A DNA stretch of 63,799 bases, counting the filler, from Reclinomonas americana ATCC 50394 (lineage: Eukaryota): assembly GCA_048213135.1 (NCBI GenBank). It is 6 parts of 5 records of this genome, joined end to end, with 100 filler letters (N's around TTAATTAATTAA, not from the genome) between each part and the next. Parts side by side here need not be neighbours in the genome. Positions count along the whole stretch, not along the records: positions 10,262 to 32,547 come from PS015320.1; 5 more parts are not named here. One strand, given 5' to 3'. The notes beneath the pieces were generated by a model. It worked only from the letters and a program-made list of their open reading frames with translations, did not search any database and had not been told where the DNA came from. Positions within the stretch are counted from its first letter, which is position 1. Each line of letters starts with the position of its first letter. Positions 5,883-62,701 of the stretch are shown here, piece by piece. Made by a program: the position numbers and the translations under genes.

Positions 5883-5982
5883 NNNNNNNNNNNNNNNNNN
5901 NNNNNNNNNNNNNNNNNNNNNNNNNNTTAATTAATTAANNNNNNNNNNNNNNNNNNNNNNNNNNNNNNNNNNNNNNNNNNNN
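5883..5982. other. Artificial scaffold spacer (N-TTAATTAATTAA-N, stops in six frames)
   Basis: The same ~100-nt linker recurs at ~10162-10260, 32548-32647, 57937-58036 and 61045-61144. Confidence 0.97.
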
Positions 5983-6254: not shown

Positions 6255-9200
6255 TTGGGCGGAGAACGTACAATTCCCCATCAACCTATGCGACCTGCCG
6301 ATCGACACGGTGCTGGCGCTGACCGTGTGGGACACATTTGCGCCGCATCGCGCCGTGCCCGTCGGCGGCACGACGGTATCACTCTTTCGCAAAAAGAGGT
6401 TTGTTTATGTTGTCTTCCTCCTCCTCCCTTGCTGTCCCCCACCAACCTCATTTTTTTCCTCGTTGGCAGCTCGCTGCTGCGCAGTGGCGCACAGTGCCTG
6501 CGCATTCATCTCAACCGCACCGCCGATCCGCGACTGGAGAGCGACACGCCAGCCTCCATCAAGGAGAAGAGCGACAATCAGCGGTTAACCAAGGTGTGCT
6601 GGCGGCGCAGCACATATTGGGTGTGCCTCTCCTGTGTCCTCACTCGGTGCTGCAGTCCTTTCATCGCTTCCAAACCGGCTGTCTACCGCAAATGACGTGG
6701 CTCGACCTGCTTTTCTACAAGGAGATGAATCGGCGGCAAAAGGTACGCTTCCTCGTGCGCACATGTGCCCGGATTGTGTCAACGTGCTGATCAAATAAAC
6801 CCGCAGGCCGCCCTCTTGGACGGCGACACCGTGTTCCTCAACGTCACACTGCCGGCGTTCAACGGTCCGGTCATGTTTGCGGAGAAGAAGCAGGAGTATC
6901 CGCCGCTGACGGGCGTCGGTCGCCCGTTCTACGGCAAGTCGTTGAAGGATGCCGAGGCGCTGGTGCAGGCGGGCAGTGTGCTGACGCCCGGAGCGGTTCC
7001 TCGTTGCGTTGAAAAGGGGAAGGAGAAGGGGGAAGGAGAAGGGGGAAGGAAGAGGGGGAAGGAGAAGGGAGAAGGAGAAGGAGGGAAAGGAGAAGGGGGA
7101 AGGAGTAGGGAGAAGGAGAAGGAGGGAAAGAGAAGGGGAAAGGACAAGGGGAGCAGGAGAAGGTTGAAGGAAAAGGGTGAAGGAGAAGGGAGAAGGAGCA
7201 AGGGAAAGGTGAAGGTGGACGGAAAAGAGGTTGAGAATGGTGAAGCAGAAGGGGGAAGGAGAAGGGGGAATTTGCAAGGGGGAGGAGAGCATGATCACGA
7301 GGAGACCGCAGTGTTGTTTCTAACGACGCCATTACCTCTCGTAGGCACGGTCTCCACTGCAAGTGCGGCGGCTCCGGCAACTGCGGCGGCAGGTGGCAGC
7401 GGTGGCCCGGGTGGATTCGCGGGTCCTGGAGCACCTCGAAGGAAATTGATCGATCCTGCCATTGATCAAGACAGTGCGGTGGAGGCGCTGTATGTCCGTC
7501 TGGCGGTCTCCATGTCCACGCATCACGCGCAGGGAATGCGTGATTTGCGGCCGGACGCCTCGGAGAGGCAGCAGTTGGAGGTGCTTCCGTAAGTGCTCTT
7601 TTTATTCCTCTCCTTTTCTGTGCTGACCGTGACCGTGGGCACAGCGCATCATCAACGCCCCACCGATCGGCAGCATCCCGGCGCATGCGCGCGAGTTGCT
7701 GTGGCAGTATCGGTATTTCTTGTCCAGCAGATACCCAAAGGTGAGCGGGGAGAGAGAGATATAGGGAGAGGGGAGAGGGGAGAGGGGAGAGGGGAAAGGG
7801 GAGAGGGAGAGAGAAAAGGAGAGGGGAAGAGAGAGAGAGGAGGACGGAAGAGACATAAGAGGGCAAGAGACAAGAGGGCGGGAGAGAGAGGAGTGTGGAA
7901 GAGAGAGAATAAAGAGAGAGGAGGAGAGAGATAGAGGGAGAGAGGAGGGCGGGTGGGCGAGAGAGAAGGGAGGACGCGAGAGAGAAAACGAGGAAGGCGA
8001 GACGCAAAAAGGAATGAGCGAGAGAGTGCAGGGAAGAGAAGCAAGGGAGAGAGAGAGAGAGAAGTGCAGTTCAAGTTACTCATCATTTCCCCCGTCACAG
8101 GCACTCGTCAAATTCCTGCGCTCGGTGGACTGGAAGAAAGACGACGAGCGACGTGAAGCCGTCTCAATCACCAACGAGTGGATGGCCATTGAAATCGCCG
8201 ATGCTCTCGAGCTGCTGTCGCGTGAGTTTTCCGCGAATCAGTTTGTGCGCAAGTATGCCGTGAGCCAGCTGGGATCGACGTCGCCCGAGGTCATGTCGTG
8301 GTGTCTGCTGTTAGTGCGAGAAGCAGTGACTGACTTGCGCGCGACAACCAGAACTTGAGTCACTACTTGCTGCCGCTGGTGCAGGCGCTGCGCTACGAGT
8401 CCAGTGAGGAGGGCAGTGGGTTGGATGAGTTTTTGGTGTCGCACACCATTGGTCATCGGGATTTGCTGTCGCAGTTGTACTGGTGAGGGTGAAGGGGAAG
8501 GGCGGGTGGGGGAAGGGAGGAAGGAGGGAGGGGGGAAGGGAGGTATGGGAGGGAGGGAGTGAGGGTGGTAAAGAAGAGGAGAAGGAAGTGTGGAAGGGAG
8601 GAAGGGAGGAGGGAAGGGAGGTATGGGAAGGAGGGGAGGAAGAAGGGAGGTATGGGAAGGAGGGTGAGGTTGGTCAAGGAGAGGAAAAGGAAGGGAGGAA
8701 GGGAGGAAGGGTTGAGTAAGTCAAGGGGACCGAGGGAGGGAGGGAAGGCAGTGAGGGAAGAGATTTATTGAGGCAGAGTCAATTTGAGGAAAGAATAGAA
8801 TGTGAAAGGCAGTGAGGGAATGAGGAAGCGGGCAAGCAGGGAAGGTTGGGAAGGGAGCAGAGGAACAAAGAGAGAGAAGGAGTGGAAGGTTGGAAGGCAA
8901 GGGAGGAATGGAGAAGAAAAGAGGAGATAGTTGAGAGCGGGAAGTAGGGTGGAAGTGGGTCGAAAAGACGAAGAGAGCCAGGGTTAATTGGACGAGGAAG
9001 GCAGTAAGGGGAAAGGGGGAAGGAAGGATTTATCGATTCTCGCCTTTGCAGTCGATAGCCTGACTGCTTTGTTCACTCAGTGTGCTCGCGCATTCTGCTC
9101 TCTTGGTCTCTTCCTCGCTGTCTTTGCTTTCTGCTTGCGCTCTATATCTTTTCTGCTTCCCTCTTTATTGGTGTATTCTTCCCTTGTTCCTTCCTCCTTT

Positions 9201-9823: not shown

Positions 9824-10260
9824 GTGAGTGCAGCGAGAGACGTGAGGGTCAAGGGCGTGTTGAGCTTTGGGGAAGCTGCTGATAACATATGCAGTTTTGA
9901 AACCTCTCTGTCTCTCCTTTACTTCTTGTCTCTTTGTCTCTGAGTCTCTCTTCTTTTCTTCTCTTCCCCCCCCTCCTCTCTCTCTATTTGCCGCACTTAG
10001 TGTCTCACTTTGTCTGTCTGTGTGCGTCTCTGTGTCTCTGTGTTCCTGTGTATCTCTGTGCGTCTGCCACTTTGCTCTCTTTGTACCACTCTTTGTCCTA
10101 TCTTTCACGTTGTCTCTTTTTCACCCATGCCCCTACTCTCTCTCTCTCTCTCTCTCTCTCTNNNNNNNNNNNNNNNNNNNNNNNNNNNNNNNNNNNNNNN
10201 NNNNNTTAATTAATTAANNNNNNNNNNNNNNNNNNNNNNNNNNNNNNNNNNNNNNNNNNN

Positions 10261-13200
10261 NTGGAGAGTGGCCCGGTGCCACTATCCGTCGACCGCACAG
10301 TCACCACGAGTCCGTTGCCGACTGTGCCAGCCGCGGTGATGCGCAGTTGACTGCCAGCGATGTTGAACAGTGCCGCATTCGTGCCGCCAACAATGGAATA
10401 GGTGAATGTCTGGCTCGAGTTGGCATCCGTGGTCGACAGAGTTCCCACCACCATGTTGGCTGTGGACGGCGGCGTGTACGTGGTCGCCGTAAGGCTGATA
10501 TTGCTCGGCGCCACGTTGGCTGCGATTGCAATCCGACACCAGTGAGTAAGTAAGACACATTGGGCTTTTCTAAAACATGCATCCCCACAAGACCTTCATC
10601 GATTGTAAACGTCTTATCTAAGAACAATGGGCCGGCGCCACTATCCGTCGTCCGCACAGTCACCACGAGTCCATTGCCGACCGTACCAGCAGCGGTGATG
10701 CGCAGTTGACTGCCGATAATATTGAACAGGGCTGCATTCGCGCCGCCAACGATGGAATAGGCGAAAGACTGGCCCGAGTTCACGTCCAATGTCGACAGCG
10801 TTCCCACCACCATGTTGGCTGTGGACGGCGGCGTGTATCTGGTCGCCGTGAGGCTGATGTTGCTGGGCGCCATGTTGACTACGTGTGTAACGAGGCACAG
10901 TCAGCGAGGGAAAAAACGAATACGGATATTGCAGTGCCTGACGAGACCTTCGCTGAGGGAAAATGTCTTCTCGACGAATAGTGTAGAGAAGGCGCTGTCG
11001 GTGGCGCGAACCTGAACGCTGAGGTTGTTGCCAGTGAGGCCAGTGTTGGTCGCACGAAGCTGGTTGGTTGAGATGTTGAACGCGGCGGCATTGGTGCCCC
11101 CTACGATGGTGTATGTGAAACGCTGACTGGCGCCCGCTCCAGTGGCATTAATGGTGGCCACTACCTGGTTCGCGACCGTCGGGAACAGGTACGTGGTGGC
11201 CGACAGCGTGATGTCAGTCGGAGCAACATTATCTATCACACATTGTGTGCGCGGGAGTGAGTGAGCGTGCAGAGGGGAAAAAGCCTCACAGAGAAGCACT
11301 CACCGGCAGTAATCGTAAACGTCTGGTCGATGTAGTTGCCTGCCGAGTCGGTGGCTCTTACTGTCACTGTTAGACTTGTTGAAGCCACTCCGTTGGTGCT
11401 AATGATAAGCGTGCTGTTGCCACTGATCGAAAACGAGGCACCATTGCCGCCGGCGACAACAGAGAAAGTAATGGTGTCGCCGACGGTGGGATCGATGGCA
11501 GACAGAGTGCCGACGACCGTGGACGTACCCGTCGATGGGGCAGTGTACCGATTGGCGGAGAGACTGATTGATGTGGGAGGTACGTTCCCTGCATCAACAA
11601 GAGGGTGAGAGGAGAAGGAGAGAGAGAGAGATGACGAGGGACAGCTCTCTCTGCGCTGTCTTGATCCCGGTGCAACACACCTGTGGCGCAACACGTCATT
11701 CCATTCGGAATGTAGGCGCCGGGTGCGCCGGTTGCCGAGTTTGTCGCATAGTCGATGCGTCCCCACCCCACGCCAGCACACGAGTCCACCCCGCTCTGCT
11801 TGAGCATGCAGTCGCTGCCGATGCCTGCAATGTCATTGGCGCTCGCACTGGCAAAGTTCAGCGGCTGACACACATTGGCGTCCTGGGCGGCTGGGACGGC
11901 GTAGCACCCCGGAATGGTTGTCGACGCCGTCGCATAGGGGACGGCGCGCAACACTGTGGAGCTTGCAGAGGAGCAAGGCGTGTATCGAATGCTGCGCCAA
12001 GGTGAGACGACGCGAAACCTCAGTGCCACATGCACGTGCACAACGAGCTTACCCGTTGCACAAGGCGGTGGCGGTGGCGTCCGTGACCGTTGTCCACGTG
12101 CCCGTGCACAAAGCCACAGAGCCAGCGTTGTTGGAGAACGAGTATGTAGGGACTGCCTGCGCACCGCATGCTGGGAGGAGGGGAAAGGGGAGGAGAGGGG
12201 GTCAATTGTCGAAGCTGTGCGCAGAACGATTTCAGCAGATGCTCACCAGTGGTGGGAGCCGATCCATTGGCGTCGCACTGCATCCGTGCGAGAGTGTGAG
12301 AGTCGCAGAGGAGCGGGGAAAAGGCGATACACCGACGCAACAGTGGCGTAAATGAGCTCAATGTAATCGACGATGGTGTCGTCGTTGACAACCACATCCA
12401 CCTGCCGTAGCGGTAACCGTGCACGTGAGGGACGGATGCAAGGAGCGGACTCACTTAGCTACCCTCTCCTCTCCCTCCACGCAACTCTCTGATTAGCATT
12501 GATCAGCGCCAGCAATCCGGTGGTGGTACTGACGTCCACCGTGAAGAGCACTCCTGTGGGGTACGTTGTGGTGGAGTAACCCGGCGCCTGTGTCGAGATC
12601 GCCTGCTTGTAGTTTGGTGTCTTCCACGTGGTGCCCGAATTATGCACGCCCACTTGCACGGTATCGTTGTCGGGAATGGAGGCGACGTTGTAGCCGGTGA
12701 CCAGGAGGCGAACAATAACCGACGACATGTTGCTGGGCAGGCCGGCAAACGTGGCCAACACGTTGGTGTCGACTCCGGTCGAGTCAAAGTCTTTGGCCGG
12801 CTTGATGCCGGCCGCCAGTGACGCCGACGGTGATGCGGGGTCTGCATGGAGAGAGAGTGATGAGCTGGAAGGAAGGAGGGGAGAGAATATCTCTGATGTG
12901 GAGGTGTCACAGGCGCATAAACAGGAATCGGGCGCGAAAAATCAATGTCGTTGAAAAGCGACCCCAATGCTGCCAGAAAACGCGCCCAGCACTGCCACTC
13001 ATTGTCTCCCACTCAGCAGAGTACTCACATGCTCACGCAAACGCACACAGACGCGCAAGAGAGAGAGAGAGAGTGATTGACGAGTGCGCAATCGAGATCT
13101 CTCTCGCTCATCACACTCATCACATTCATCTTCCCACAGTCACACACACTCACCTGTTGGTAGTGCAAAGTTGTCCTTGATGCCCTGCAACACGGTGGTT

Positions 13201-19431: not shown

Positions 19432-22400
19432 CTATGCGGGTTCTGCGGGGGCTAGCCGGCACGTCCTGGCTGCTGTGGTGGCGTCGGGATCCACGTAGCG
19501 CAGCCCCGGCCACGAGTTGGCCTCCCATCTCGGCGTGTCCTTGATGTACCAGTCGGGATACTGCGCAACGTCGGCAGAGGTGGCCCCCGTGATGTCGACC
19601 AGCCGCTTGGCATCCTCCTGCAGCGGGAATGGATGGAGCGCCGCGTACTGCAGCACCATCTCGTGGAGGAACGCCAGGACGGCGTCTTCGGAGAGCATGT
19701 GTAGCACAAAATCACGTCCGGCCTTGGCGATGCGCTCGGCCACCTCCGGGTGCGCCTCCAAATAATGCAGCTTGTCGAAAAGATCGCGGCCGTCCCATCG
19801 AAACGGCACATAGTGCACCCACGGTTGCAAAAGCGGGCGATGGAAATCCTCGTGCAACGATTCTTGCATAAACACCACTGATCCGCAGGCGAACAGGTAC
19901 TTGTTGCTGGTGGGGAAGAGTGCTGAGGAAAAAGAGGGAAAGGGCGAGTGCGACTTCCCTCACAAACCGTGCGGTCCACGTGAAACCCTCCATGGTGACG
20001 AGATATCTGTGGCCGCCGGCTGAAGTCAGGAGCATGGTGAGCGGGGGAAAGGAAGAGTGGGGACGACGCAACTTGTACTTGCAGTGATCGAATACGGTGA
20101 CGTAGTTGGGCTCGCCCTTGACACTGCACAGGCGCGATAAATACACTGTTGCAAATACGCTGGCCAGTGACGACGCAACTCCTTCCCCTGATCGAAAGCC
20201 TTGCCGACGTTGGTCCACTCCATCGACACCTCGTGCTCCTTCAAATCGCCCCGCTCAATCATCTGTCGCACGTTGTCCATGACGACCTTGCGTCGCGTCG
20301 GTGGTCCCGTGCGACCCACATCCTTGCCGCGCCAAAAGAGAATCGGCTTGCGCTGCGCAAGGGGGATGGCGTCGCGTTCCATGCGCGGCAACACTCCCGT
20401 CCAGAAGGCCGGAATGAACGAGGTTTGCCAGTGAAAGAACGCAAAGTCTGGCATCAGCACGTCGTGCTGCGTGCAGCGAAAGGGTGAGACGGGTTTGGAG
20501 GAAGAGGGCGGCGGCACGGATGAGAGACCTCTTCCAGCGTCCGCGATTGCGAGAGTACAATAGGGATCTGCGAGAAGAAGTGAGCGACACGAGGATGAAG
20601 AAGAGGGAGGGGGAGAGTGGAGTGGAGCGTACCGGTGCCAGGTGAAACTCGTGCTTGAGAATGACAGCCGGGTCGTCAATGTTGATGGGCAAGTCAAAGT
20701 CGGGCGTGTCGCGGTACTTTTCCAGCATGCGCAGGAGGAGCCACAGCATGCCTTGTGGCCGACACTCAATGCCTGCGACCACGAGCACTCTGAAGATGTC
20801 ACTCAAAGTAGTGTGTGCACGAACACCCTCACCTCGTTGCACCGACCATCCCAATCGCCCGTCGCGTTTCTGCAGTCGCACTCCTCGTCCCCAGTACACT
20901 CCGCGATTCAGCGCAGTCTCGTGCACCTCCGCAGTCACCTCAACGCCCTGCGTGCATGAGGTGAGGGAGGAGAAGGAGTGGGAGGAAGGGAGAAGGAGTG
21001 GGAGAAAAGGAGAAGGAGTAGAGAAAGACATAACAGGGCAAAGGAGGAGAAGGAGCGGTGGGAGACAAGCAGAGAAGGGAGCAGGGCAATGAGAGACAGG
21101 GGCGAGAGGAGTGAGAGACTTGAAGAAGGAGAGGAGAGACAGAAGAAAGGGGACAGGGAAAGGATAGGAGGCGAGGGATAGGGGCGAGAGGTGAGAGAGT
21201 CTAAGAGACGAAAACAGGGCAAGGGATGAGAAAGACGAGAGAGACAGGAAGAAAGGCGAACAGGGCAAGGGAGGAGACAGCAAGGAGCAAGAGGTGAGAC
21301 AGGGAGAAGGAGTGGAGAGAAACAGCGAAGGGCCAGTGTAAGAGTGGAGAAGGAGTGGAGGGAGACAAGAAGAGGGGCAACAAGACAAGCGAGGAGACAG
21401 NNNNNNNNNNNNNNNNNNNNNNNNNNNNNNNNNNNNNNNNNNNNNNNNNNNNNNNNNNNNNNNNNNNNNNNNNNNNNNNNNNNNNNNNNNNNNNNNNNNN
21501 NNNNNNNNNNNNNNNNNNNNNNNNNNNNNNNNNNNNNNNNNNNNNNNNNNNNNNNNNNNNNNNNNNNNNNNNNNNNNNNNNNNNNNNNNNNNNNNNNNNN
21601 NNNNNNNNNNNNNNNNNNNNNNNNNNNNNNNNNNNNNNNNNNNNNNNNNNNNNNNNNNNNNNNNNNNNNNNNNNNNNNNNNNNNNNNNNNNNNNNNNNNN
21701 NNNNNNNNNNNNNNNNNNNNNNNNNNNNNNNNNNNNNNNNNNNNNNNNNNNNNNNNNNNNNNNNNNNNNNNNNNNNNNNNNNNNNNNNNNNNNNNNNNNN
21801 NNNNNNNNNNNNNNNNNNNNNNNNNNNNNNNNNNNNNNNNNNNNNNNNNNNNNNNNNNNNNNNNNNNNNNNNNNNNNNNNNNNNNNNNNNNNNNNNNNNN
21901 NNNNNNNNNNNNNNNNNNNNNNNNNNNNNNNNNNNNNNNNNNNNNNNNNNNNNNNNNNNNNNNNNNNNNNNNNNNNNNNNNNNNNNNNNNNNNNNNNNNN
22001 NNNNNNNNNNNNNNNNNNNNNNNNNNNNNNNNNNNNNNNNNNNNNNNNNNNNNNNNNNNNNNNNNNNNNNNNNNNNNNNNNNNNNNNNNNNNNNNNNNNN
22101 NNNNNNNNNNNNNNNNNNNNNNNNNNNNNNNNNNNNNNNNNNNNNNNNNNNNNNNNNNNNNNNNNNNNNNNNNNNNNNNNNNNNNNNNNNNNNNNNNNNN
22201 NNNNNNNNNNNNNNNNNNNNNNNNNNNNNNNNNNNNNNNNNNNNNNNNNNNNNNNNNNNNNNNNNNNNNNNNNNNNNNNNNNNNNNNNNNNNNNNNNNNN
22301 NNNNNNNNNNNNNNNNNNNNNNNNNNNNNNNNNNNNNNNNNNNNNNNNNNATAGGAGCGAGAGGTGAGAGACAGGGAGAAGGAGTGGAGAGAAACAGTGA

Positions 22401-27234: not shown

Positions 27235-28108
27235 TTCCAGTGCAGTACGTCGACGACGGCGACTTGTGGCCCTGCGGCCGGTGATCCTCGTCCTCAATCT
27301 CGGTCTGCGCTCGGGAACCGCCAAGCTGCCAGTGCACTACGGCGACGATCCGCACGAGGTGGCGCAGCAGTTTGTGCAAGAGCGCGGTCTCGACGAGCAC
27401 CTCGTGCCGCGCATCCGTGACCAGATTGAGGAGAACTTGCCGCGTGGCGAGGAACTGGACCAGCTGCTGCGCGAGTACGACGTACCGCAGTCGCCGCCGC
27501 CGCCTCCCGCCCTTGTCAGCTCGTCACCGCAACCGCGTCGGCAGGCGACGCCGCGATCACCGCTGTCACCGTTGTTCACTGCGGCGGCTCTGGGCGCCGC
27601 TCGTGCACACTCTGCGCAGACCACACCGCGCCGACGCGGCAGTCGGCCAGCCACCAATCCACTCGTCTCACCGCGGTCGGACATGGCCACCGAGTCGTTC
27701 CTCACGCTGACACCGACACAACACGATCGAGCCTCACAGAGCGACGCCACATCACTCGTGGCGACGCCCATGTCGGGCATTGGCCGCGGCCCCGCTCATC
27801 ACCACGAATTCGACGACTCGGTCGACGACGGCACGCCGCGCAATCTGTCGTCGTCGTTTGATGCCTCCCTGTCGCCGCGATCACCACCACCACCAATTGC
27901 TCGCCCTGTGGTGCTGCTGGCGCACTTTGCGCTGGGTGCGGGGAGGACGGAGACCGTGGCGGTGCGCGACGGCGACAATCCCGAACAGCTGGCGCATGAC
28001 TTTGTGCGGCAGCACAACCTCGGTCCGCATGTGGTGCAGCGTGTGCTGCAAACACTGCGCGACAATCTCGCTCACGGCGCTCAACAACAACAACAGCCAC
28101 CACCATGA
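27235..28108 (+). CDS. C-terminal exon with two PFU-like (PLAA/Doa1 ubiquitin-binding-like) repeats; may continue the upstream gene
   Basis: KLPVHYGDDPHEVAQQFVQERGL...IRDQIEENL and VAVRDGDNPEQLAHDFVRQHNL...LRDNL resemble the PFU pattern LKLPYN..DDP..A..FL...L. Ends in TGA. Confidence 0.65.
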
Positions 28109-28267
28109 GACAGACGGGAAAAACGGGAGGCAAGATGTAATCATAATGATAAAAAAAGCAAGAGAAATGTTTGTAAACACACCAAAAACGAAAAGAGAAA
28201 CATGAAACGAGAAACGACGCGCGCGCGCACACCCAAACAACTAACGCAGAGGTAATTCTTTTTTGCC

Positions 28268-28874
28268 TTACAAGCCGTCAAGTGGTGATCTTGGCTGCGG
28301 AGGCGATGCGCTCGAGGCGGTGGATCCGTACGAGGGTGGTGCCGCGATACCAATTCGATTGAGGTACGACTTTCGCACGGCCATGGCACTGCGAGTCGGT
28401 AGCAGTGTGGCGGCCTTGGGTGGAGCCACGGGCACGAATTCCATCATGGCGCCGGGTCCCACCAGCGAGATCGAGTGCAGCTCCTGTAAAAGGGGAAAGG
28501 GTGAGGAAGGGGAAGGGGAAGGGGGAGATGGGGAAGGAGAGAGGGGGGAAGGAGAAGGGGAAAGGTGAAGGGAGATAGACAAAGGGGGAAAGGAATGGAG
28601 AAACGTGAAGGGGGAGGAGAAGGGGGAAGGAGAAGGGGCCGGAGAAGGGGAAGGAGAAGGGGGATGAAGGAGAAGGGGAAAGGTGAAAGGAGATAGGCGA
28701 AGTGGGAAGGGAAGGGAGAAAGGCGAAGGGAAAGGAGGAGGGGGGAACGAGAAGGGGGAAGGAGAAAGAGGAAGAAAGAGTTGCGCGTATGGGTGAGCGA
28801 GTGAGTGAGGTGCAGTCAGCGAGTGAATGAGTAAGTGACTGTAAGAGTGAGTGTGAGTGAGTGTGTGTGTGTGT

Positions 28875-28950
<76 letters not shown>

Positions 28951-31900
28951 GTACCNNNNNNNNNNNNNNNNNNNNTCGACAACATAAGAGAGGAAGGGAC
29001 ACAAATACACACACATACAGAGCGTGTAGCACACAAAGTTTGGCAAGCGATCAACGAAACATGTCACGCGGAATGTCCTTGATGCTGGTGCCTTGCACTG
29101 GTGCCGACGGAATGGCGAAGACCAGACCGACGAGGAATTGGAAAATGGCCTGTGTGGAGGCGGAGGGAACGAACGGTGAGTATGACTGGAACAGGAGCTG
29201 AAGGATAAGGGTTGTCGGAAGACGCTGAGATAAGAGACAAAGACGCAGAAGAGGGACAGAAGCGCACTGCCAGCCCAGAGTAGGAAAACAGACATAGAAG
29301 AGGAGACAGGCAAGTTGAATCGATCGCATCCAACCCCGATCAACTCACCACCCAGAGATTGAGGTAGAACACGTCAATGTCCGCTCCCTTGAAGGCCTTC
29401 TCCTTGTAGACGGACGACAGCGCAGTCGGCACGTTGCTGAGGAAGAAGACCATGGCCCACAGTGGGCTGTTGCCACTGCCGCCTTGCAGGAGCGACGGGA
29501 TGAGCACCGTGATAATGCCGCCCATGATGATGGAGGAGCCGATGATTTGCAGCAGCTTGTATCTGGCGAGCGTGACGCGATGAGAAAACAATCACTCCAG
29601 AACACGGAACGTGTGCACGAACCGGGCCTTCAGGAAGATGAACGAGGCCAACATGGTCACGGGAATGGCGCCTTGTGAGAGCAGCACCGACATGGGGCCG
29701 TTGATGCCAGTGACACCGAACACGGTGAGAATCTGGGCGTCGATGTGCGGGAGAAGGATGAGAGGGGTAGGCGATAAGAAGGAGTGAAGAAAACATGCGG
29801 TTACGTACACCAGCGACGGCGTCGAGCGTGCCCATGACGAAGAAGCGGAACTTGGGGAACGATTCCATCTCCTTGGTGATGCTGCGGGAGAAGGAGGGGA
29901 GAGAGAAAAGAAAGTGAGAGATTTGAAACAGATCAAAGAGAAGGCATTCGCAGAAGGCGGGGCGAAGCAGGACAGAGTTGGAGAGGGAGAGAAGCAGACA
30001 GTGCGAGATGTGGGAGAAACAGATCAAAGAAAGGAGGCACAGAACGGACACAAAGAGAAGGAGCGCACTCAACGACGCTCACTCTGGCGAGAGGAAAGCG
30101 GAGATCCGACGAGAGGAAAGTGGAGAGGGAGTGTGTGTGAGAGAGAGAGAGAGAACCAGAAAAAGATAAGCAAATGAGAAACAGATCAAAGAGAAGGCAT
30201 TCGCAGAAGGCGGGGCGAAGCACACGACTTACTCCAAAAAGGAGGACGGAGGTAGAGAGTGAGAGAACCAGACAGTGGGAGATGTGCAAGAAACACATCA
30301 TAGAAAGGAGGCATAGAACGGACACAAAGAAAAGGAGTGCGCTCAACGACGCTCACTCCGACGAGAGGAAAATGGAGAGAGACAGCAAGAGATAAGAAAA
30401 ACCAGAGACTTGAGAAACAGGCAAAAGAAAATAGGAATTTACAGAGGGGCACATCATGGAGAAGCACAAAGATAAAGTAGGAAAACAGCGGAAGAGGGAG
30501 AGAAAGAGAAACCAGTCATGGAAACAGGCGCAGGAATATCACACGGTCGAACGAAGCACACTCGACCATGCTCACAAAAAGACACACAACTGTGCCCACA
30601 AGCAAGTGCTCTGTCGAGACGCAACAGATTGGTCTTCCACTTGAGGATGATGCAAATGATCCAGAACACGGGAATGTAGACGACCGTGGTCAGCTGACTC
30701 AAAAAGTACGGGTAGTTGCGCTGCGTGTGGCATGTGCCAGGTGAGCGAACAACATCGTTCAACTTCAAACTATACACCACAAACGCACCATGGGAATCGT
30801 CATCTTCTTCAGCGTGATCTTGTTGCCGAGACCGAAGATGATGAGGAACACCAGGAAGATGAGAAGGCGCCAGTCGACGGTCTTCAGTCGCTCCCTCCAC
30901 TCCTTCGGGTGCGTGATTACGTACAGGAATGATTTCTGCACACGACAGAGTGTGAGCATGAAGGGCATGAGCACGCACGACAATTCTCCTTCACAAATCG
31001 CACCTTCGGTAGTGGCTCATCCAACGGCGCCTCCAAATCCTCTTGCGTGGCATTAATAAGCGAGTCATCGGTGGCCGGTCGTGGGCTCTTCTTGCCGTCA
31101 CGCGGGTCGTGAATCACCACCCGTCGTGGCGCGCCCACACGCGAGGTGCCTGGTGAGGTGCCGAGCGCCGGTCCCATCACTGAGCTCGAATCCAGCGGCG
31201 ACTCCACACCCTCGTAGGCGTCTGAGCCGGAGCGCATCAGCGGCTTGCGATCGTCGTCCTCGCCCTCGCGGTTTCCACCAAACACGGCTTGCTCGCGCGG
31301 CGGCACCACCTTTGGTGCGGACGGTGCGCTCTTGCTCGCGGCGCCACCAGAACGCTTGGGAGCGGCGGCGGCAGGGGCGGGGGCGGCANNNNNNNNNNNN
31401 NNNNNNNNNNNNNNNNNNNNNNNNNNNNNNNNNNNNNNNNNNNNNNNNNNNNNNNNNNNNNNNNNNNNNNNNNNNNNNNNNNNNNNNNNNNNNNNNNNNN
31501 NNNNNNNNCCCCTCCCTTCTCCTCACCTACCTTCCCCTCCCGCAGCCCCATCGCCCGCAACCTGCTCGAGGAAGCCGCGAACCGCGCAGAGCACACACAG
31601 ACAACTATGGACTCCATGTCTCGCTACTTTGGAAACATGCTGGACGGAGTGCGTCGCTCGCCGCTCCTCCACTTTACACCCGCGCGCACTCTTTCTCCTC
31701 ACCCTCGTTATCTGACAGCAGTCCCCTCTCGCCCCCACCGGACCTCTGTCCGCATCGCCTCCTGCTGCNNNNNNNNNNNNNNNNNNNNNNNNNNNNNNNN
31801 NNNNNNNNNNNNNNNNNNNNNNNNNNNNNNNNNNNNNNNNNNNAAGGGGAAGGGGAAGGGAGAGAAGGGGGACGAGAGGGAGAGGGACAGGGAGAGGGAG

Positions 31901-32399
31901 GAGGGAGGGAAAAGGGAGGGAGAAGGGAGAGAGAAGGGAGGGAGGAGAGGGAGGAGAGGGAGGAGAGGGAGGACACGGAGGAGACGGAGGAGAGGGAGGA
32001 GAGAGGGAGAGAGAAGGGAGGGAGGAGAAGGGAGAGAGAAGGGAGGGAGTGGAGAAGAAAAGGAGGGGAGAAGAAGAATAAGGGAAAACAAAGTAAGCAG
32101 AAAAGGGAGAGAGGATGAAGGCAGATGGCAGAAGAAACCAAGGACTGGAAACGAGCACCCTGAGAAACACAGAGTCTACGCAACGTGAATTCGTGCAGCT
32201 CAATTGTTCCGCTGCGATCCGCATCGGCAGACTGGAAGGCTGCACTCGCAAAGCAGACAGTCAGTTATGGAGAGAGAGAGAGAGAGAGAGAGTGAAAAGT
32301 ACACTGAACTCTGCTGTGATCATCTCGTGTATGCGTGTCTACGCATTCTCATTCAGTGCAGCGACTCAGTCACCAGAGCTCCTCTATCTGAGTGTTTGA
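28268..32399 (-). CDS. CRT-family (chloroquine resistance transporter-like, DMT superfamily) transporter with an N-terminal EF-hand; 5' end and some C-terminal TM exons missing in gaps
   Basis: Motifs GNKITLKKMTIPMRNYPYFLSQLTTVVYIPVF, FPKFRFFVMGTLDAVAG, LLSQGAIPVTMLASFIFLKARY and SNVPTALSSVYKEKAFK...DVFYLNLWVAIFQ. Upstream exons 32374-32399 and 32185-32244 encode QIEELCAAFQSADADRSGTIELHEF. Confidence 0.88.
31509..31768 (+). other. Gap-flanked contig placed in inverted orientation; carries exon sequence of the minus-strand CRT-like gene
   Basis: Exon 31546-31648 continues the EF-hand exit helix in phase (HEFT-PIARNLLEEAANR). The contig's end CCTGCTGC overlaps the TGCCGCC that starts the next minus-strand piece. 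Confidence 0.85.
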
Positions 32400-32482
32400 C
32401 TGGTGGGAAAAGAAAGATAATCCGCATCTCAGTCTCTAGTGATCAACTGATCTCTGTCAATGTCTGTCTTTCTGCCGGCCTG

Positions 32483-32538
<56 letters not shown>

Positions 32539-32697
32539 TGTGTTGTTNNNNNNNNNNNNNNNNNNNNNNNNNNNNNNNNNNNNNNNNNNNNTTAATTAAT
32601 TAANNNNNNNNNNNNNNNNNNNNNNNNNNNNNNNNNNNNNNNNNNNNCCTTCGGTCGACGTACTCTACGTCTCTCTACCCTCCTACTCCTCCTCCTC

Positions 32698-57936: not shown

Positions 57937-58055
57937 NNNNNNNNNNNNNNNNNNNNNNNNNNNNNNNNNNNNNNNNNNNNTTAATTAATTAANNNNNNNN
58001 NNNNNNNNNNNNNNNNNNNNNNNNNNNNNNNNNNNNACACACACACACTCACACA

Positions 58056-61044: not shown

Positions 61045-62701
61045 NNNNNNNNNNNNNNNNNNNNNNNNNNNNNNNNNNNNNNNNNNNNTTAATTAATTAA
61101 NNNNNNNNNNNNNNNNNNNNNNNNNNNNNNNNNNNNNNNNNNNNAACCGCTGGGTCACAGCGGTGGTGGTTAATGAGTCTCCTGGAGACCTATATTCAGT
61201 CTTCAGATCTTCATCTTCACCAACAAACAAGCGAACACAGATACCAGTCTGAAGATAAAGACAACAGCCAGTTTCAACAGTGAACGATCAGAGTCAACAC
61301 AATGACGGGAGTTCACTTGGTTTCTTTTCGAGCCTCGGTTAAAGCAAGACCCGAGCGAGAGAGACAAAAACTTCCAATAGTGAAGATAATGCAAAAGCAG
61401 ATAACGTAGAAGCCAAAACGACCGTAGTCGCCGTGACCTGTATTGCCAATGGCCGCACGTAGCACACCACCATCGAGGAAAACGCAGGGAGGAGAGAGGA
61501 GAGAGAATGGAGATTCACGATCCAGCGCTTAATTCCGGAAGCAATGCTCTCATGCAGGTGAACATGCTCCAGATAATGACGGTGCCACCACGGGTGCCGC
61601 GCCACCCTCCGTCGTCTCAAGCAATCGACAAGAGACAGGTCATGGCCTTGCGCGCCTGCACACGCTTGCCCCTGCCATAGTCATCTTGCTGATCCAGCGG
61701 CGCTGAAAGGCCGTCGTAAAGCCTCTTGGACATGGATGATGTGGTTGACTGTTGTCTCTCTCAACAGGAAAGAAAGTGAAAAACAAGAGGAGTGTGTAAG
61801 ACTCCGATCGTATTTTCACTTTATGAAACCATGATATTCCAACAGTGGAAATCTGGAATGTAGTGGTCGAGGCGCGACGCAGCTGCACAGTCTCGACAGC
61901 GCTAGCAAGCGATCCGTATCATCACTGCTTCACCAGTCTTGATGTTGATCATGAGAGCAGCGGCAGGTATTCTTGTTATTATATTAGCACTATAATCTTC
62001 ACCAAATAAGCATGGTAGTAGTGACATCCTACTCGGGAGAAGACCATAGCCAGGCAAACATAAACAAAGCCGGGTCCGGATCTGAGAAGCAAGCGAAGCA
62101 TTGGAGACTTCGTAATCGAGAAGCAGCTGCAGGCAAAGCAAAAGCAGTGGAGGTGTGGCGTGGTTGAAAAACAGAAGATATCTTGTCAAGTTGTTGGTGA
62201 GGCTCATATCGGTGGTGGCTGGTGGTGGGCGCAGTTGTTGTTGCTGTTGTTGTTGTTGTTGTCGCATCAGTGATTTCAACACTGTGACAGCCACTGACCG
62301 GTGGCCGCACAGTGAGAAACAAGAGGACTGAGGGTTGAAGACGACGTTGACCACAGACACGGTGTTGTCGTCATTATGTACAGTGATGGCGGTGGAGGGG
62401 AAGAACGTGCAAGACATGCTGGTTGCGTGAAAGCAAGGCCAGTGTCAGCAGTTACTGCCGTGCAGAGATGACGCGAATACTGGCAGCCACGTGTGCCGCC
62501 CAAATGACATGATCGTGTCGGGCGACAGACACACAGCACCTCTAAATATATATTCAAAATCTCCAGATCTCCATTTACACTGGAGGAAACTTGCTGGTGA
62601 TTGATTGAGTGCTAACACGAACTGCCACAGCCAGAACGACAAATCGCCAACAGAATTACAGATATCGATCTCCAGCTAACTTCGAAACATCAATCTCAAT
62701 A

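What the first reader, a model, noticed from the sequence alone, without database searches (positions are those of the whole stretch)
28268..32399. EF-hand fused to a CRT-family transporter, hidden by an inverted contig
Seen: minus exons 32374-32399 and 32185-32244 give SNTQIEELCAAFQSADADRSGTIELHEFT, a canonical 12-residue loop (DADRSGTIELHE) with calmodulin-like spacing. Flipping contig 31509-31768 supplies the in-phase exit helix PIARNLLEEAANRAEH...MLDG and then QSPLAPTGPLSASPPAA. That overlaps into AAPAPAAAAPKRS..., the exon that splices on to the CRT transmembrane region. Established: CRT-family members (Plasmodium PfCRT, plant CLTs, Dictyostelium CRT-like proteins) are organellar peptide/thiol transporters, and I do not recall EF-hands in them. 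Inference: a directly Ca2+-regulated CRT-like transporter; further EF-hands may lie beyond the scaffold end.
Basis: partly seen in the sequence, partly recalled or inferred. Interest (0 to 1): 0.75.

Follow-up and report, generated by a model that had tools for sequence, protein, structure and literature searches.

The report
Possible calcium-sensing CRT-like transporter gene
A membrane transporter gene of the chloroquine-resistance-transporter family in an unidentified protist probably starts with a calcium-binding EF-hand, a combination not seen in its relatives, but assembly gaps and a wrongly turned small contig leave the link unproven.

Summary
On the minus strand, a 26-nt and a 60-nt exon (32374-32399, 32185-32244) splice into a canonical EF-hand. 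It is the only PROSITE-type EF-loop match in the six-frame translation of the window.

Downstream on the same strand lies a real CRT-like (PF08627) gene. Its spliced product is 57% identical to Andalucia godoyi Crt homolog 1.

The 260-nt contig between two N gaps (31509-31768) is very probably mis-oriented, on four grounds:
- It codes on the opposite strand.
- Its intron-like parts have the opposite purine skew to every neighbouring intron.
- Its first exon has a strong acceptor in phase with the EF-hand exon's donor.
- That exon supplies the exit-helix hydrophobic pattern.

The CRT reading frame stays coding-like upstream of its first Met and runs into the gap.

The join from contig to CRT exon remains unproven. 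The "overlap" is 3 nt, exon Y scores poorly, and only one EF-hand is visible. The 5' end lies beyond the scaffold end, and the exons for about 130 residues of the transporter's C-terminal half (P0002 271-399) are lost in another gap. No transcripts, reads or orthologues could be found.

0 of 162 CRT-like relatives carry an EF-hand. The scan index holds no look-alike on other DNA. I put one fused gene at about 0.55.

The parts
32374..32399 (-). EF1 micro-exon (SNTQIEEL + 2 nt), the start of the EF-hand entering helix. It is phase 0 at its 5' end, so more exons lie upstream beyond the scaffold end at 32547.
   Evidence: Acceptor ctttcttttcccaccag| and donor |gtgactgag. It supplies motif positions 1-2 (E, L) of the EF-hand.
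32185..32244 (-). EF2 exon: the rest of the entering helix, the 12-residue Ca2+ loop DADRSGTIELHE (32190-32225) and the first exit-helix residue.
   Evidence: It is the only EF-loop pattern match in the window. Pfam EF-hand_5 at E 6.7e-5 and PDB EF-hand hits. The donor |gttgcg is the same hexamer as the homology-forced donor of CRT exon C.
31844..32184 (-). Intron-like CT-rich (sense strand) low-complexity DNA downstream of EF2.
   Evidence: Purine fraction of 0.91 on the + strand, like the CRT introns at 0.51-0.84. No AT-rich intergenic-like stretch is present.
31769..31843 (.). Assembly gap (75 N).
31509..31768 (+). Small contig, very probably mis-oriented in the scaffold. It is transcribed from what is assembled as the + strand.
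   Evidence: Its non-exon parts have purine fractions of 0.14, 0.29 and 0.26 against 0.51-0.91 for all flanking introns. The minus strand has stops in all three frames (1, 3 and 3), while the plus strand has 1, 0 and 0. The contig is unique in the window.
31546..31648 (+). Exon X (1 nt + 34 codons: PIARNLLEEAANRAEHTQTTMDSMSRYFGNMLDG). It is the proposed exit helix of the EF-hand plus a linker.
   Evidence: Codon log-odds of +0.33 per codon, the best of six frames, with all others at or below -0.46. Acceptor with a 0.85 pyrimidine tract, in phase with the EF2 donor. It gives I, A, L at EF-hand positions 25, 26 and 29, against R, R, V for read-through. Strong donor |gtgcgt.
31719..31768 (+). It is doubtful and may instead be intron running into the gap.
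   Evidence: Acceptor ttatctgacag|. Codon score of -0.78 in this frame and +0.21 in frame +1, over only 16 codons. Purine fraction 0.26, which is intron-like.
31389..31508 (.). Assembly gap (120 N) between the small contig and CRT exon A.
   Evidence: The frame is kept both with a 3-nt overlap and with a 120-nt gap.
31004..31388 (-). Exon A: Ala/Pro/Ser-rich N-terminal region of the CRT-like protein, open at its 5' end into the gap. The first Met is at codon 51.
   Evidence: Codons 1-50, upstream of the first Met, score +0.32, the best of six frames. No stop in any frame. Donor AAG|gtgcga.
30789..30935 (-). CRT exon B (TM1 region).
   Evidence: tblastn to P0002 residues 51-76; splice sites.
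30626..30720 (-). CRT exon C.
   Evidence: Pfam CRT-like profile positions 26-56 and tblastn. The donor CT|gttgcg is forced by phase and homology.
29809..29881 (-). CRT exon D.
   Evidence: tblastn; splice sites.
29623..29732 (-). CRT exon E.
   Evidence: Pfam CRT-like profile positions 82-121, E 8.9e-10. The donor CG|gttcgt is forced by the frame.
29349..29562 (-). CRT exon F.
   Evidence: Pfam CRT-like profile positions 111-191, E 5.1e-21, 75.4 bits.
29063..29149 (-). CRT exon G (3' end uncertain).
   Evidence: tblastn to P0002 residues 242-270.
28956..28975 (.). 20-N gap that presumably hides the exons for the transporter's C-terminal half (P0002 residues 271-399).
   Evidence: No part of the window matches that stretch of any of the 7 homologues tried.
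28268..28483 (-). CRT exon H: the C-terminal tail with the conserved VRKSYLNRIGIAAPP motif and the TAA stop (28268-28270).
   Evidence: Weak tblastn matches to the C-terminal tails of P0015 (E 0.065) and P0002 (E 0.2). The same motif is seen in P0002, P0153 and P0003.

Best explanation
One minus-strand gene encodes a CRT-like (DMT-superfamily) transporter. Its long N-terminal extension, cytosolic by analogy with PfCRT, begins with at least one canonical Ca2+-binding EF-hand.

Proposed exon order: [missing 5' exons beyond the scaffold end] - EF1 - EF2 - X (on the 260-nt contig, which the scaffolder placed in the wrong orientation) - (Y or intron, then gap) - A - B - C - D - E - F - G - [exons lost in the 20-N gap] - H.

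Shown here:
- The EF-hand is real and correctly spliced.
- The small contig is transcribed in the opposite sense to the way it is assembled.
- X fits EF2 in phase and in helix pattern.
- The CRT reading frame is coding-like upstream of its first Met and open into the gap.
- The CRT-like half-transporter keeps all family-invariant residues.

Inferred:
- X is spliced, directly or through Y, to exon A, making one protein.
- The EF-hand binds Ca2+.
- Ca2+ binding on the cytosolic side changes transport, for instance by docking or releasing the N-terminal domain on the transporter's cytosolic face. EF-hand domains regulate mitochondrial ATP-Mg/Pi carriers in this way.
For: EF-hand: it is the unique pattern match in the window against 0.055 expected. 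Pfam and PDB hits agree. Motif positions 1, 2, 5, 6, 9 read E, L, A, F, A, and positions 22, 25, 26, 29 read F, I, A, L in the spliced form, against F, R, R, V for read-through.

Inversion: X scores +0.33 per codon on the + strand, the best of six frames. The method picks the true frame in 12 of 13 leave-one-out tests. The contig's non-exon parts have purine fractions of 0.14-0.29, against 0.51-0.91 for the 8 CRT introns and the flank at 31844-32184. The minus strand of the contig has stops in all frames.

EF2 to X: the phase matches, giving 189 nt with no stop. Of 125 in-phase AG sites, 12 pass a loose exit-helix filter, and only 31546 has a strong pyrimidine tract, at 0.85. The unusual donor GTTGCG is also used by CRT exon C, and GTTCGT by exon E. 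EF2 read-through has no stop for more than 110 codons of low complexity, so EF2 must splice onward.

X to CRT: exon A codons 1-50 contain no Met, score +0.32 (best of six) and are open into the gap. Both gap edges are Ala/Pro-type GC-rich sequence and are in frame. Nothing between EF2 and exon A resembles the AT-richer intergenic stretch at 28109-28267 (GC 0.42).

Topology: PfCRT's N and C termini are cytosolic (PMC10950298, passages read).
Against: - No transcript, read or orthologue evidence exists: no genome is held, no runs were listed, and protein and metagenome searches were blank.
- The Y-A junction is a 120-N gap. The 3-nt overlap is trivial and the frame match has a 1-in-3 chance.
- Y scores -0.78 per codon in the proposed frame.
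- All three frames are open around the gap, so ORF continuity carries little weight.
- Only one EF-hand is visible, whereas EF-hands normally come in pairs. X matches no family and the Atlas gave nothing above 0.81.
- 0 of 162 CRT-like relatives carry an EF-hand family, so the architecture has no precedent among them.
- The codon model was trained on about 770 codons, 306 of them from this gene.
Confidence: 0.55

Rival explanations
1. There are two tandem genes on the minus strand. An upstream EF-hand protein gene (EF1, EF2, X, perhaps Y) has its stop and 3' end hidden in the 31389-31508 gap. A separate CRT-like gene has its start codon in the same gap.
For: The gap hides the junction and scaffold gap sizes are only estimates. 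No relative has the fusion, at 0 of 162. Y scores poorly as coding. Intergenic spacers in this genome can be short, for example 159 nt between convergent genes at 28109-28267. All frames are open near the gap, so continuity is weak evidence.
Against: A 120-nt gap would have to hold the end of one coding region, a stop, a 3' UTR, a promoter, a 5' UTR and a start codon. Both gap edges look like the same Ala/Pro-rich coding tract, and exon A is coding-like right up to the gap with no Met. X has a strong donor, so at least one more exon follows it.
Confidence: 0.3
2. The 260-nt contig is misplaced as well as inverted, and belongs to another locus. The EF-hand exons either join CRT exon A through sequence hidden in the gaps or belong to something else.
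For: The assembly is very fragmented, with 28 N runs in 63.8 kb, and part of the CRT gene itself is missing. The support for X as the partner of EF2 is circumstantial: a phase match at 1-in-3 odds and a helix pattern that passes at about 10%.
Against: Both contig ends match their flipped neighbours in composition. The CT-rich intron end faces the CT-rich (sense) flank, and the Ala/Pro-type end faces the Ala/Pro-type start of exon A. X is the only candidate that combines phase, helix pattern, a pyrimidine tract, coding score and a strong donor.
Confidence: 0.1
3. The EF-hand is a chance match in non-coding DNA, and the CRT-like gene simply starts in the gap.
For: The single-exon fragment is below the Pfam gathering scores, at 22.6 against 25.9 bits. 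EF1 and EF2 codon scores are only +0.16 and +0.08.
Against: The pattern is expected 0.055 times per window. The entering helix is completed by a separate micro-exon with proper splice sites and in the right register. PDB EF-hand hits reach E 4.6e-8.
Confidence: 0.03

Closest known systems
Andalucia godoyi 'Crt homolog 1' (eukprot ANDGO_06385, P0002) and an unnamed Logan protein, P0153
   Same: The spliced exons B-G align to P0002 residues 51-270 at 57% identity (125 of 218) and to P0153 at 58%. All 9 invariant and 15 near-invariant family columns in that stretch are kept. The same C-terminal ...R-x-x-Y-x-x-R-L/I-G... tail motif is present.
   Different: Those proteins have short Ser/Ala-rich N-termini of about 50-55 residues and no EF-hand. 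Here the N-terminal extension is at least 151 residues before the aligned core, and it may carry an EF-hand.
PfCRT (Plasmodium falciparum chloroquine resistance transporter), plant CLT1-3 and Dictyostelium CRT-like proteins (Pfam PF08627, DMT superfamily)
   Same: Same Pfam family. PfCRT has a 10-TM core and cytosolic termini (PMC10950298, passages read). The peptide and thiol substrates of PfCRT and the CLTs are recalled knowledge plus search listings only.
   Different: No EF-hand or other Ca2+ sensor is described in them, and a full-text search for CRT-like plus EF-hand found no paper on such a fusion. The substrate and the organelle of the present protein are unknown.
Ca2+-regulated mitochondrial ATP-Mg/Pi carriers (SCaMC/APC, SLC25A24) and aspartate/glutamate carriers (Aralar)
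   Same: The design principle is the same: an N-terminal EF-hand regulatory domain is fused through a linker to a secondary transporter, so that Ca2+ on one side of the membrane gates transport (PMC5369052 and PMC6283063, abstracts seen in the listing).
   Different: The transporter fold is unrelated (SLC25 against DMT/CRT-like). Those carriers have four EF-hands, while only one is visible here. Regulation is not shown here.

Membership tests
CRT-like transporter (Pfam PF08627, DMT superfamily) | Significant match to the PF08627 profile | tested here: met
   Exon F scores 75.4 bits (E 5.1e-21) and exon E 38.5 bits, both above the 26.9 cut-off. Exon C scores 22.7 bits.
CRT-like transporter (Pfam PF08627, DMT superfamily) | Family-invariant residues (columns invariant or at least 90% conserved in a 23-protein alignment, A1) | tested here: met
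   9 of 9 invariant and 15 of 15 near-invariant columns that fall in the assembled part (P0002 51-270) are kept. The other 9 invariant columns lie in the missing part.
CRT-like transporter (Pfam PF08627, DMT superfamily) | Complete 10-TM core (profile positions 1-335) | tested here: inconclusive
   Only the equivalent of P0002 51-270 and the C-terminal tail are in the window. Residues 271-399 match nothing, probably because they are lost in the 20-N gap at 28956-28975.
CRT-like transporter (Pfam PF08627, DMT superfamily) | Transport of peptides, thiols or drugs across an organellar membrane | not testable with these tools
EF-hand (Pfam PF00036/PF13202/PF13499; PROSITE-type loop) | 12-residue loop with ligands at positions 1, 3, 5, 9 and 12, Gly at 6 and a hydrophobic residue at 8 | tested here: met
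   DADRSGTIELHE gives D1, D3, S5, G6, I8, E9 and E12. It is the only match in the window. The pattern was written from memory.
EF-hand (Pfam PF00036/PF13202/PF13499; PROSITE-type loop) | Flanking helices with hydrophobic residues at motif positions 2, 5, 6, 9 and 22, 25, 26, 29 | tested here: met
   L, A, F, A and F, I, A, L appear in the EF1+EF2+X spliced form. This feature is met only if X is the next exon, because read-through gives F, R, R, V. The position list is recalled.
EF-hand (Pfam PF00036/PF13202/PF13499; PROSITE-type loop) | Score above the Pfam gathering threshold | tested here: inconclusive
   The single-exon fragment reaches 22.6 bits (cut-off 25.9) for EF-hand_5 and 21.4 bits (cut-off 25.4) for EF-hand_1. 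The spliced form could not be submitted to the tools.
EF-hand (Pfam PF00036/PF13202/PF13499; PROSITE-type loop) | Occurs as a pair of EF-hands | tested here: not met
   No second loop is present in the window and X matches no family. A partner could lie upstream of EF1, beyond the scaffold end at 32547.
EF-hand-regulated SLC25 carriers (APC/SCaMC, AGC) | Mitochondrial-carrier (SLC25) transport domain | tested here: not met
   The transport domain is CRT-like/DMT, not SLC25. The resemblance is one of design only.

The most novel reading that the evidence does not exclude
A CRT-like (DMT-superfamily) organellar transporter carries its own N-terminal EF-hand Ca2+ sensor. Cytosolic Ca2+ would then directly gate peptide, thiol or metabolite flux across an organelle membrane. 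This would be the first Ca2+-sensor fusion in this transporter family, and an independent reinvention of the design used by the mitochondrial ATP-Mg/Pi and aspartate/glutamate carriers.
Probability: 0.5. Interest if true: 0.65.

Novelty: new variant of a known kind. Interest (0 to 1): 0.45.

Why it matters
How CRT-family transporters are regulated is unknown, to my knowledge. No member is known to sense a second messenger directly. A natural EF-hand-CRT fusion would point to Ca2+ as a physiological regulator of this family. It would also give a tractable construct for testing how a cytosolic domain gates a DMT-fold transporter.

There is a practical lesson too. In this assembly, small contigs between gaps can be inverted. 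The strong purine/pyrimidine strand bias of this gene's introns may offer a simple way to detect such inversions.

Tried and rejected
- Whole genome: none is held.
- Sequencing runs: none was listed for window 28976-31388, and no RNA holder was listed. Read laying therefore could not be used.
- The search for homologous proteins with exon F, 'longer': nothing.
- The search for homologous proteins with exon A, 'longer': nothing.
I dropped this query.
- The search of protein representatives: no protein of this organism was found, and the best match was a 111-aa fragment at 67% identity.
- Cluster look-up: gave no organism names.
- Scan index: no notes near the locus and no look-alikes of exon F, the small contig or exon A.
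- ESM Atlas with X: scores at or below 0.81, uninformative. With exon F: generic DMT/NST clusters with no EF-hand.
- Metagenome scans: a 24-mer of X gave no match. The A1 profile was rejected as too diverse. Exon F gave 423 pattern matches, none confirmed.
- mafft --add of the spliced product to A1 gave a poor alignment. My first exon E boundary was also off by one base, which put exon F out of frame without creating a stop. This was corrected.
- Long ORFs as a coding training set: rejected. CT-rich introns lack stops, so long ORFs here are mostly not coding.
- A possible upstream loop-like string before EF1 (about 32430-32470, minus strand): rejected. It ends in a stop, follows a (CT)n repeat and is out of phase with EF1.
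- Structure or complex prediction of the spliced N-terminus: not run, because spliced (joined) sequences are not accepted by those tools.
Full report
**Setting**

The window is eukaryotic, intron-rich and badly fragmented, with 28 N runs. It is a concatenation of scaffolds joined by N44-TTAATTAATTAA-N44 linkers. The finding lies at the very end of the scaffold that spans 10262-32547. No whole genome is held, and no sequencing run could be listed. Everything below therefore rests on the sequence itself and on homologues.

**The transporter**

Pfam finds CRT-like (PF08627) on 3 of 10 exon-sized ORFs submitted:
- Exon F: 75.4 bits, E 5.1e-21, profile positions 111-191.
- Exon E: 38.5 bits.
- Exon C: 22.7 bits.

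A HMMER search of 1.84 billion representatives with exon F gave 414 proteins at E<=0.001. The best was a 111-aa fragment at 67% identity, and no protein from this organism appeared.

tblastn of seven full-length hits back onto the window, together with the splice sites, defines minus-strand exons:

| Exon | Coordinates |
|---|---|
| A | 31004-31388 |
| B | 30789-30935 |
| C | 30626-30720 |
| D | 29809-29881 |
| E | 29623-29732 |
| F | 29349-29562 |
| G | 29063-29149 |
| H | 28268-28483 (with stop) |

Spliced by coordinates, A-G is 1110 nt, or 370 codons, with no stop. It aligns to residues 51-270 of P0002 at 57% identity (125 of 218). P0002 is named 'Andalucia godoyi Crt homolog 1' by its source. 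All 9 invariant and 15 near-invariant columns of a 23-protein family alignment that fall in that stretch are kept.

Exon H carries the family's C-terminal tail motif. The statistics are weak (E 0.065-0.2), but the motif is recognisable in P0002, P0153, P0003 and P0015.

The equivalent of P0002 residues 271-399 matches nothing in the window. Those exons, which encode much of the transporter's C-terminal half, are presumably lost in the 20-N gap at 28956-28975. The gene is a genuine CRT-like family member, but it is incompletely assembled.

**The EF-hand**

- EF1 (32399-32374) has a pyrimidine-rich acceptor (ctttcttttcccaccag|) and the donor |gtgact.
- EF2 (32244-32185) uses the first AG after the intron (ttgcgag|) and the donor |gttgcg.
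- Together they read SNTQIEELCAAFQSADADRSGTIELHEF(T).
- The loop plus the following Phe is the only match to a PROSITE-type EF-hand pattern (written from memory) in six frames of the whole window. Shuffles give 0.055 per window.
- The EF2 ORF alone hits EF-hand_5, EF-hand_1 and EF-hand_6, just below their gathering scores.
- It also hits 186 distinct PDB EF-hand sequences at E<=10, the best being radial spoke protein 7 at 4.6e-8.
- The micro-exon supplies E and L at motif positions 1-2 in the right register.

I take the EF-hand as real and, by its ligand set (D1, D3, S5, E9, E12, G6, I8), competent to bind Ca2+. The binding itself is inference.

**The small contig**

Contig 31509-31768 lies between 120 N and 75 N. 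Five lines of evidence say it is transcribed from what is assembled as the + strand, opposite to both neighbours.

1. *Coding potential.* I built a codon log-odds model from about 770 homology-supported codons of the window: the CRT exons, a GT90 gene, a PI3Ka stretch, a TPR gene and the neighbouring gene's end. It picks the true frame as the best of six in 12 of 13 leave-one-out tests. Exon X (31547-31648, +) scores +0.33 per codon, the best of six, with every other frame at or below -0.46.
2. *Strand bias.* The 8 confirmed CRT introns have + strand purine fractions of 0.51-0.84, and the flank at 31844-32184 has 0.91. The contig's three non-exon parts have 0.14, 0.29 and 0.26.
3. *Stop codons.* The contig's minus strand has stops in all three frames. 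Its plus strand has two open frames.
4. *Splice sites.* X has an acceptor with a 0.85 pyrimidine tract (cccctcccgcag|) and a strong donor (|gtgcgt).
5. *End composition.* When the contig is flipped, both ends match their neighbours. The CT-rich end meets the CT-rich (sense) intron, and the Ala/Pro-type end meets the Ala/Pro-type start of exon A.

The contig is unique within the window.

**Linking EF2 to X**

EF2 ends with two bases of a codon and X starts with one. EF1+EF2+X is 189 nt, or 63 codons, with no stop. The join places I, A and L at EF-hand motif positions 25, 26 and 29. Read-through of the EF2 donor gives R, R and V instead (the position list is recalled).

I enumerated all 125 AG sites that could accept the EF2 donor in phase: 47 on the minus strand between 32184 and 31004, 9 on the contig's plus strand, and 69 in the rest of the gene. 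Twelve pass a loose exit-helix filter. Only 31546 also has a strong pyrimidine tract, and it is the one with the coding score and the good donor.

The donor GTTGCG looked weak at first. However, the same hexamer is the donor of CRT exon C, where it is forced by phase and homology. Exon E uses GTTCGT. GTT-type donors are therefore normal in this gene.

EF2 cannot be a last exon. Its frame runs on without a stop through more than 110 codons of CT-rich low complexity.

**Linking X to the transporter**

This is the weak link. Three points favour it:
- Exon A has no Met in its first 50 codons. Those codons score +0.32 (best of six), and the frame is open into the gap. The CRT coding region therefore starts upstream of 31388.
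- X has a strong donor, so another exon must follow it.
- Nothing between EF2 and exon A resembles the AT-richer intergenic DNA seen at 28109-28267.

Several points count against it or add nothing:
It is in frame, as is a 120-nt gap, but the chance of that is one in three.
- Y has an intron-like purine fraction of 0.26, so it may be intron that continues into the gap.
- All frames are open around the gap.

A two-gene reading needs a stop, a 3' UTR, a promoter, a 5' UTR and an ATG inside a gap estimated at 120 nt. That is unlikely unless the estimate is badly wrong.

**Architecture among relatives**

- 0 of 75 and 0 of 75 of the best 150 representatives carry any EF-hand family at E<=0.01. All 150 carry CRT-like.
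- A profile search of the 5.8-billion-protein collection returned 15 proteins at E<=1e-10. Twelve were new, and none had an EF-hand among its precomputed Pfam domains.
- In total, 0 of 162 relatives carry an EF-hand.
- A loose regular expression found no convincing loop in the 150.
- A full-text search for CRT-like or chloroquine resistance transporter together with EF-hand returned 11 papers, 9 of them listed. By their titles and abstracts, none is about such a fusion.

If real, the architecture is new for the family. The absence of precedent also lowers the prior.

**Mechanism (inferred)**

PfCRT's N and C termini face the cytosol (PMC10950298, passages read). An N-terminal EF-hand domain would therefore sense cytosolic Ca2+.

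[quoted passage not shown] It has an N-terminal four-EF-hand domain, an amphipathic linker helix and a carrier domain, and it is regulated by a 'locking pin' (PMC5369052 and PMC6283063, abstracts in the listing). The present protein works like these carriers only in design. It is not an SLC25 member.

Only one EF-hand is visible here. A partner could lie upstream of EF1, beyond the scaffold end.

**Context from the scan**

Earlier AI notes on this same genome describe other membrane proteins with EF-hand domains, including a channel with a calmodulin-like tail and claudin-like proteins with a calflagin domain. I did not test these notes, and they are not independent support.

**Verdict**

| Element | Assessment |
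|---|---|
| Observation | Confirmed |
| Contig inversion | Well supported |
| EF-hand to X join | Reasonably supported |
| X to CRT join (the fusion) | Plausible, about 0.55 |
| Ca2+ regulation | Inference |

This would be a new variant of a known kind, namely a CRT-like transporter with an added EF-hand. Its interest is moderate until a transcript or a closed assembly settles the join.

Noticed in passing
window 5883-5982, 10162-10261, 32548-32647, 57937-58036, 61045-61144: The window is a concatenation of separate scaffolds joined by N44-TTAATTAATTAA-N44 linkers (a six-frame stop spacer). Neighbouring scaffolds need not be adjacent in the genome.
   Followed up: partly
window 28956-28975: The CRT-like gene lacks the exons equivalent to residues 271-399 of the Andalucia homologue (much of the transporter's C-terminal half). 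They are probably lost in this 20-N gap of unknown true size.
   Followed up: partly
window 30620-30625, 29617-29622, 32179-32184 (minus strand): GTT-type splice donors are used in this gene: GTTGCG twice and GTTCGT once. Two of them are forced by phase and homology. This is unusual against the common GTRAGT-type consensus.
   Followed up: partly
window 28484-28955, 29882-30625, 31844-32184: The introns are long low-complexity tracts that are strongly CT-rich on the sense strand (purine fraction 0.74-0.91 on the opposite strand). They lack stop codons, so they create long spurious ORFs. The bias marks the direction of transcription in this gene and may help to spot mis-oriented contigs.
   Followed up: partly
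window 19435-19959 and about 20143-20466 (minus strand): A glycosyltransferase family 90 (CAP10-like) gene. Pfam PF05686 hits the first ORF at E 3.6e-22, and a likely upstream exon carries an FWRG-type stretch.
   Followed up: no
window 8095-8310 (+) and 44517-45479 (-): A PI3K accessory (PIK) domain exon (PF00613, E 9.6e-17) and a TPR-repeat gene (TPR_10, E 8.5e-11), both on other scaffolds of the window.
   Followed up: no
window 27914-28108 (+): A convergent neighbouring gene ends with a Gln/Pro-rich tail and a TGA stop at 28106-28108. That is only 159 nt from the CRT gene's stop, so 3' intergenic spacers in this genome can be very short.
   Followed up: no
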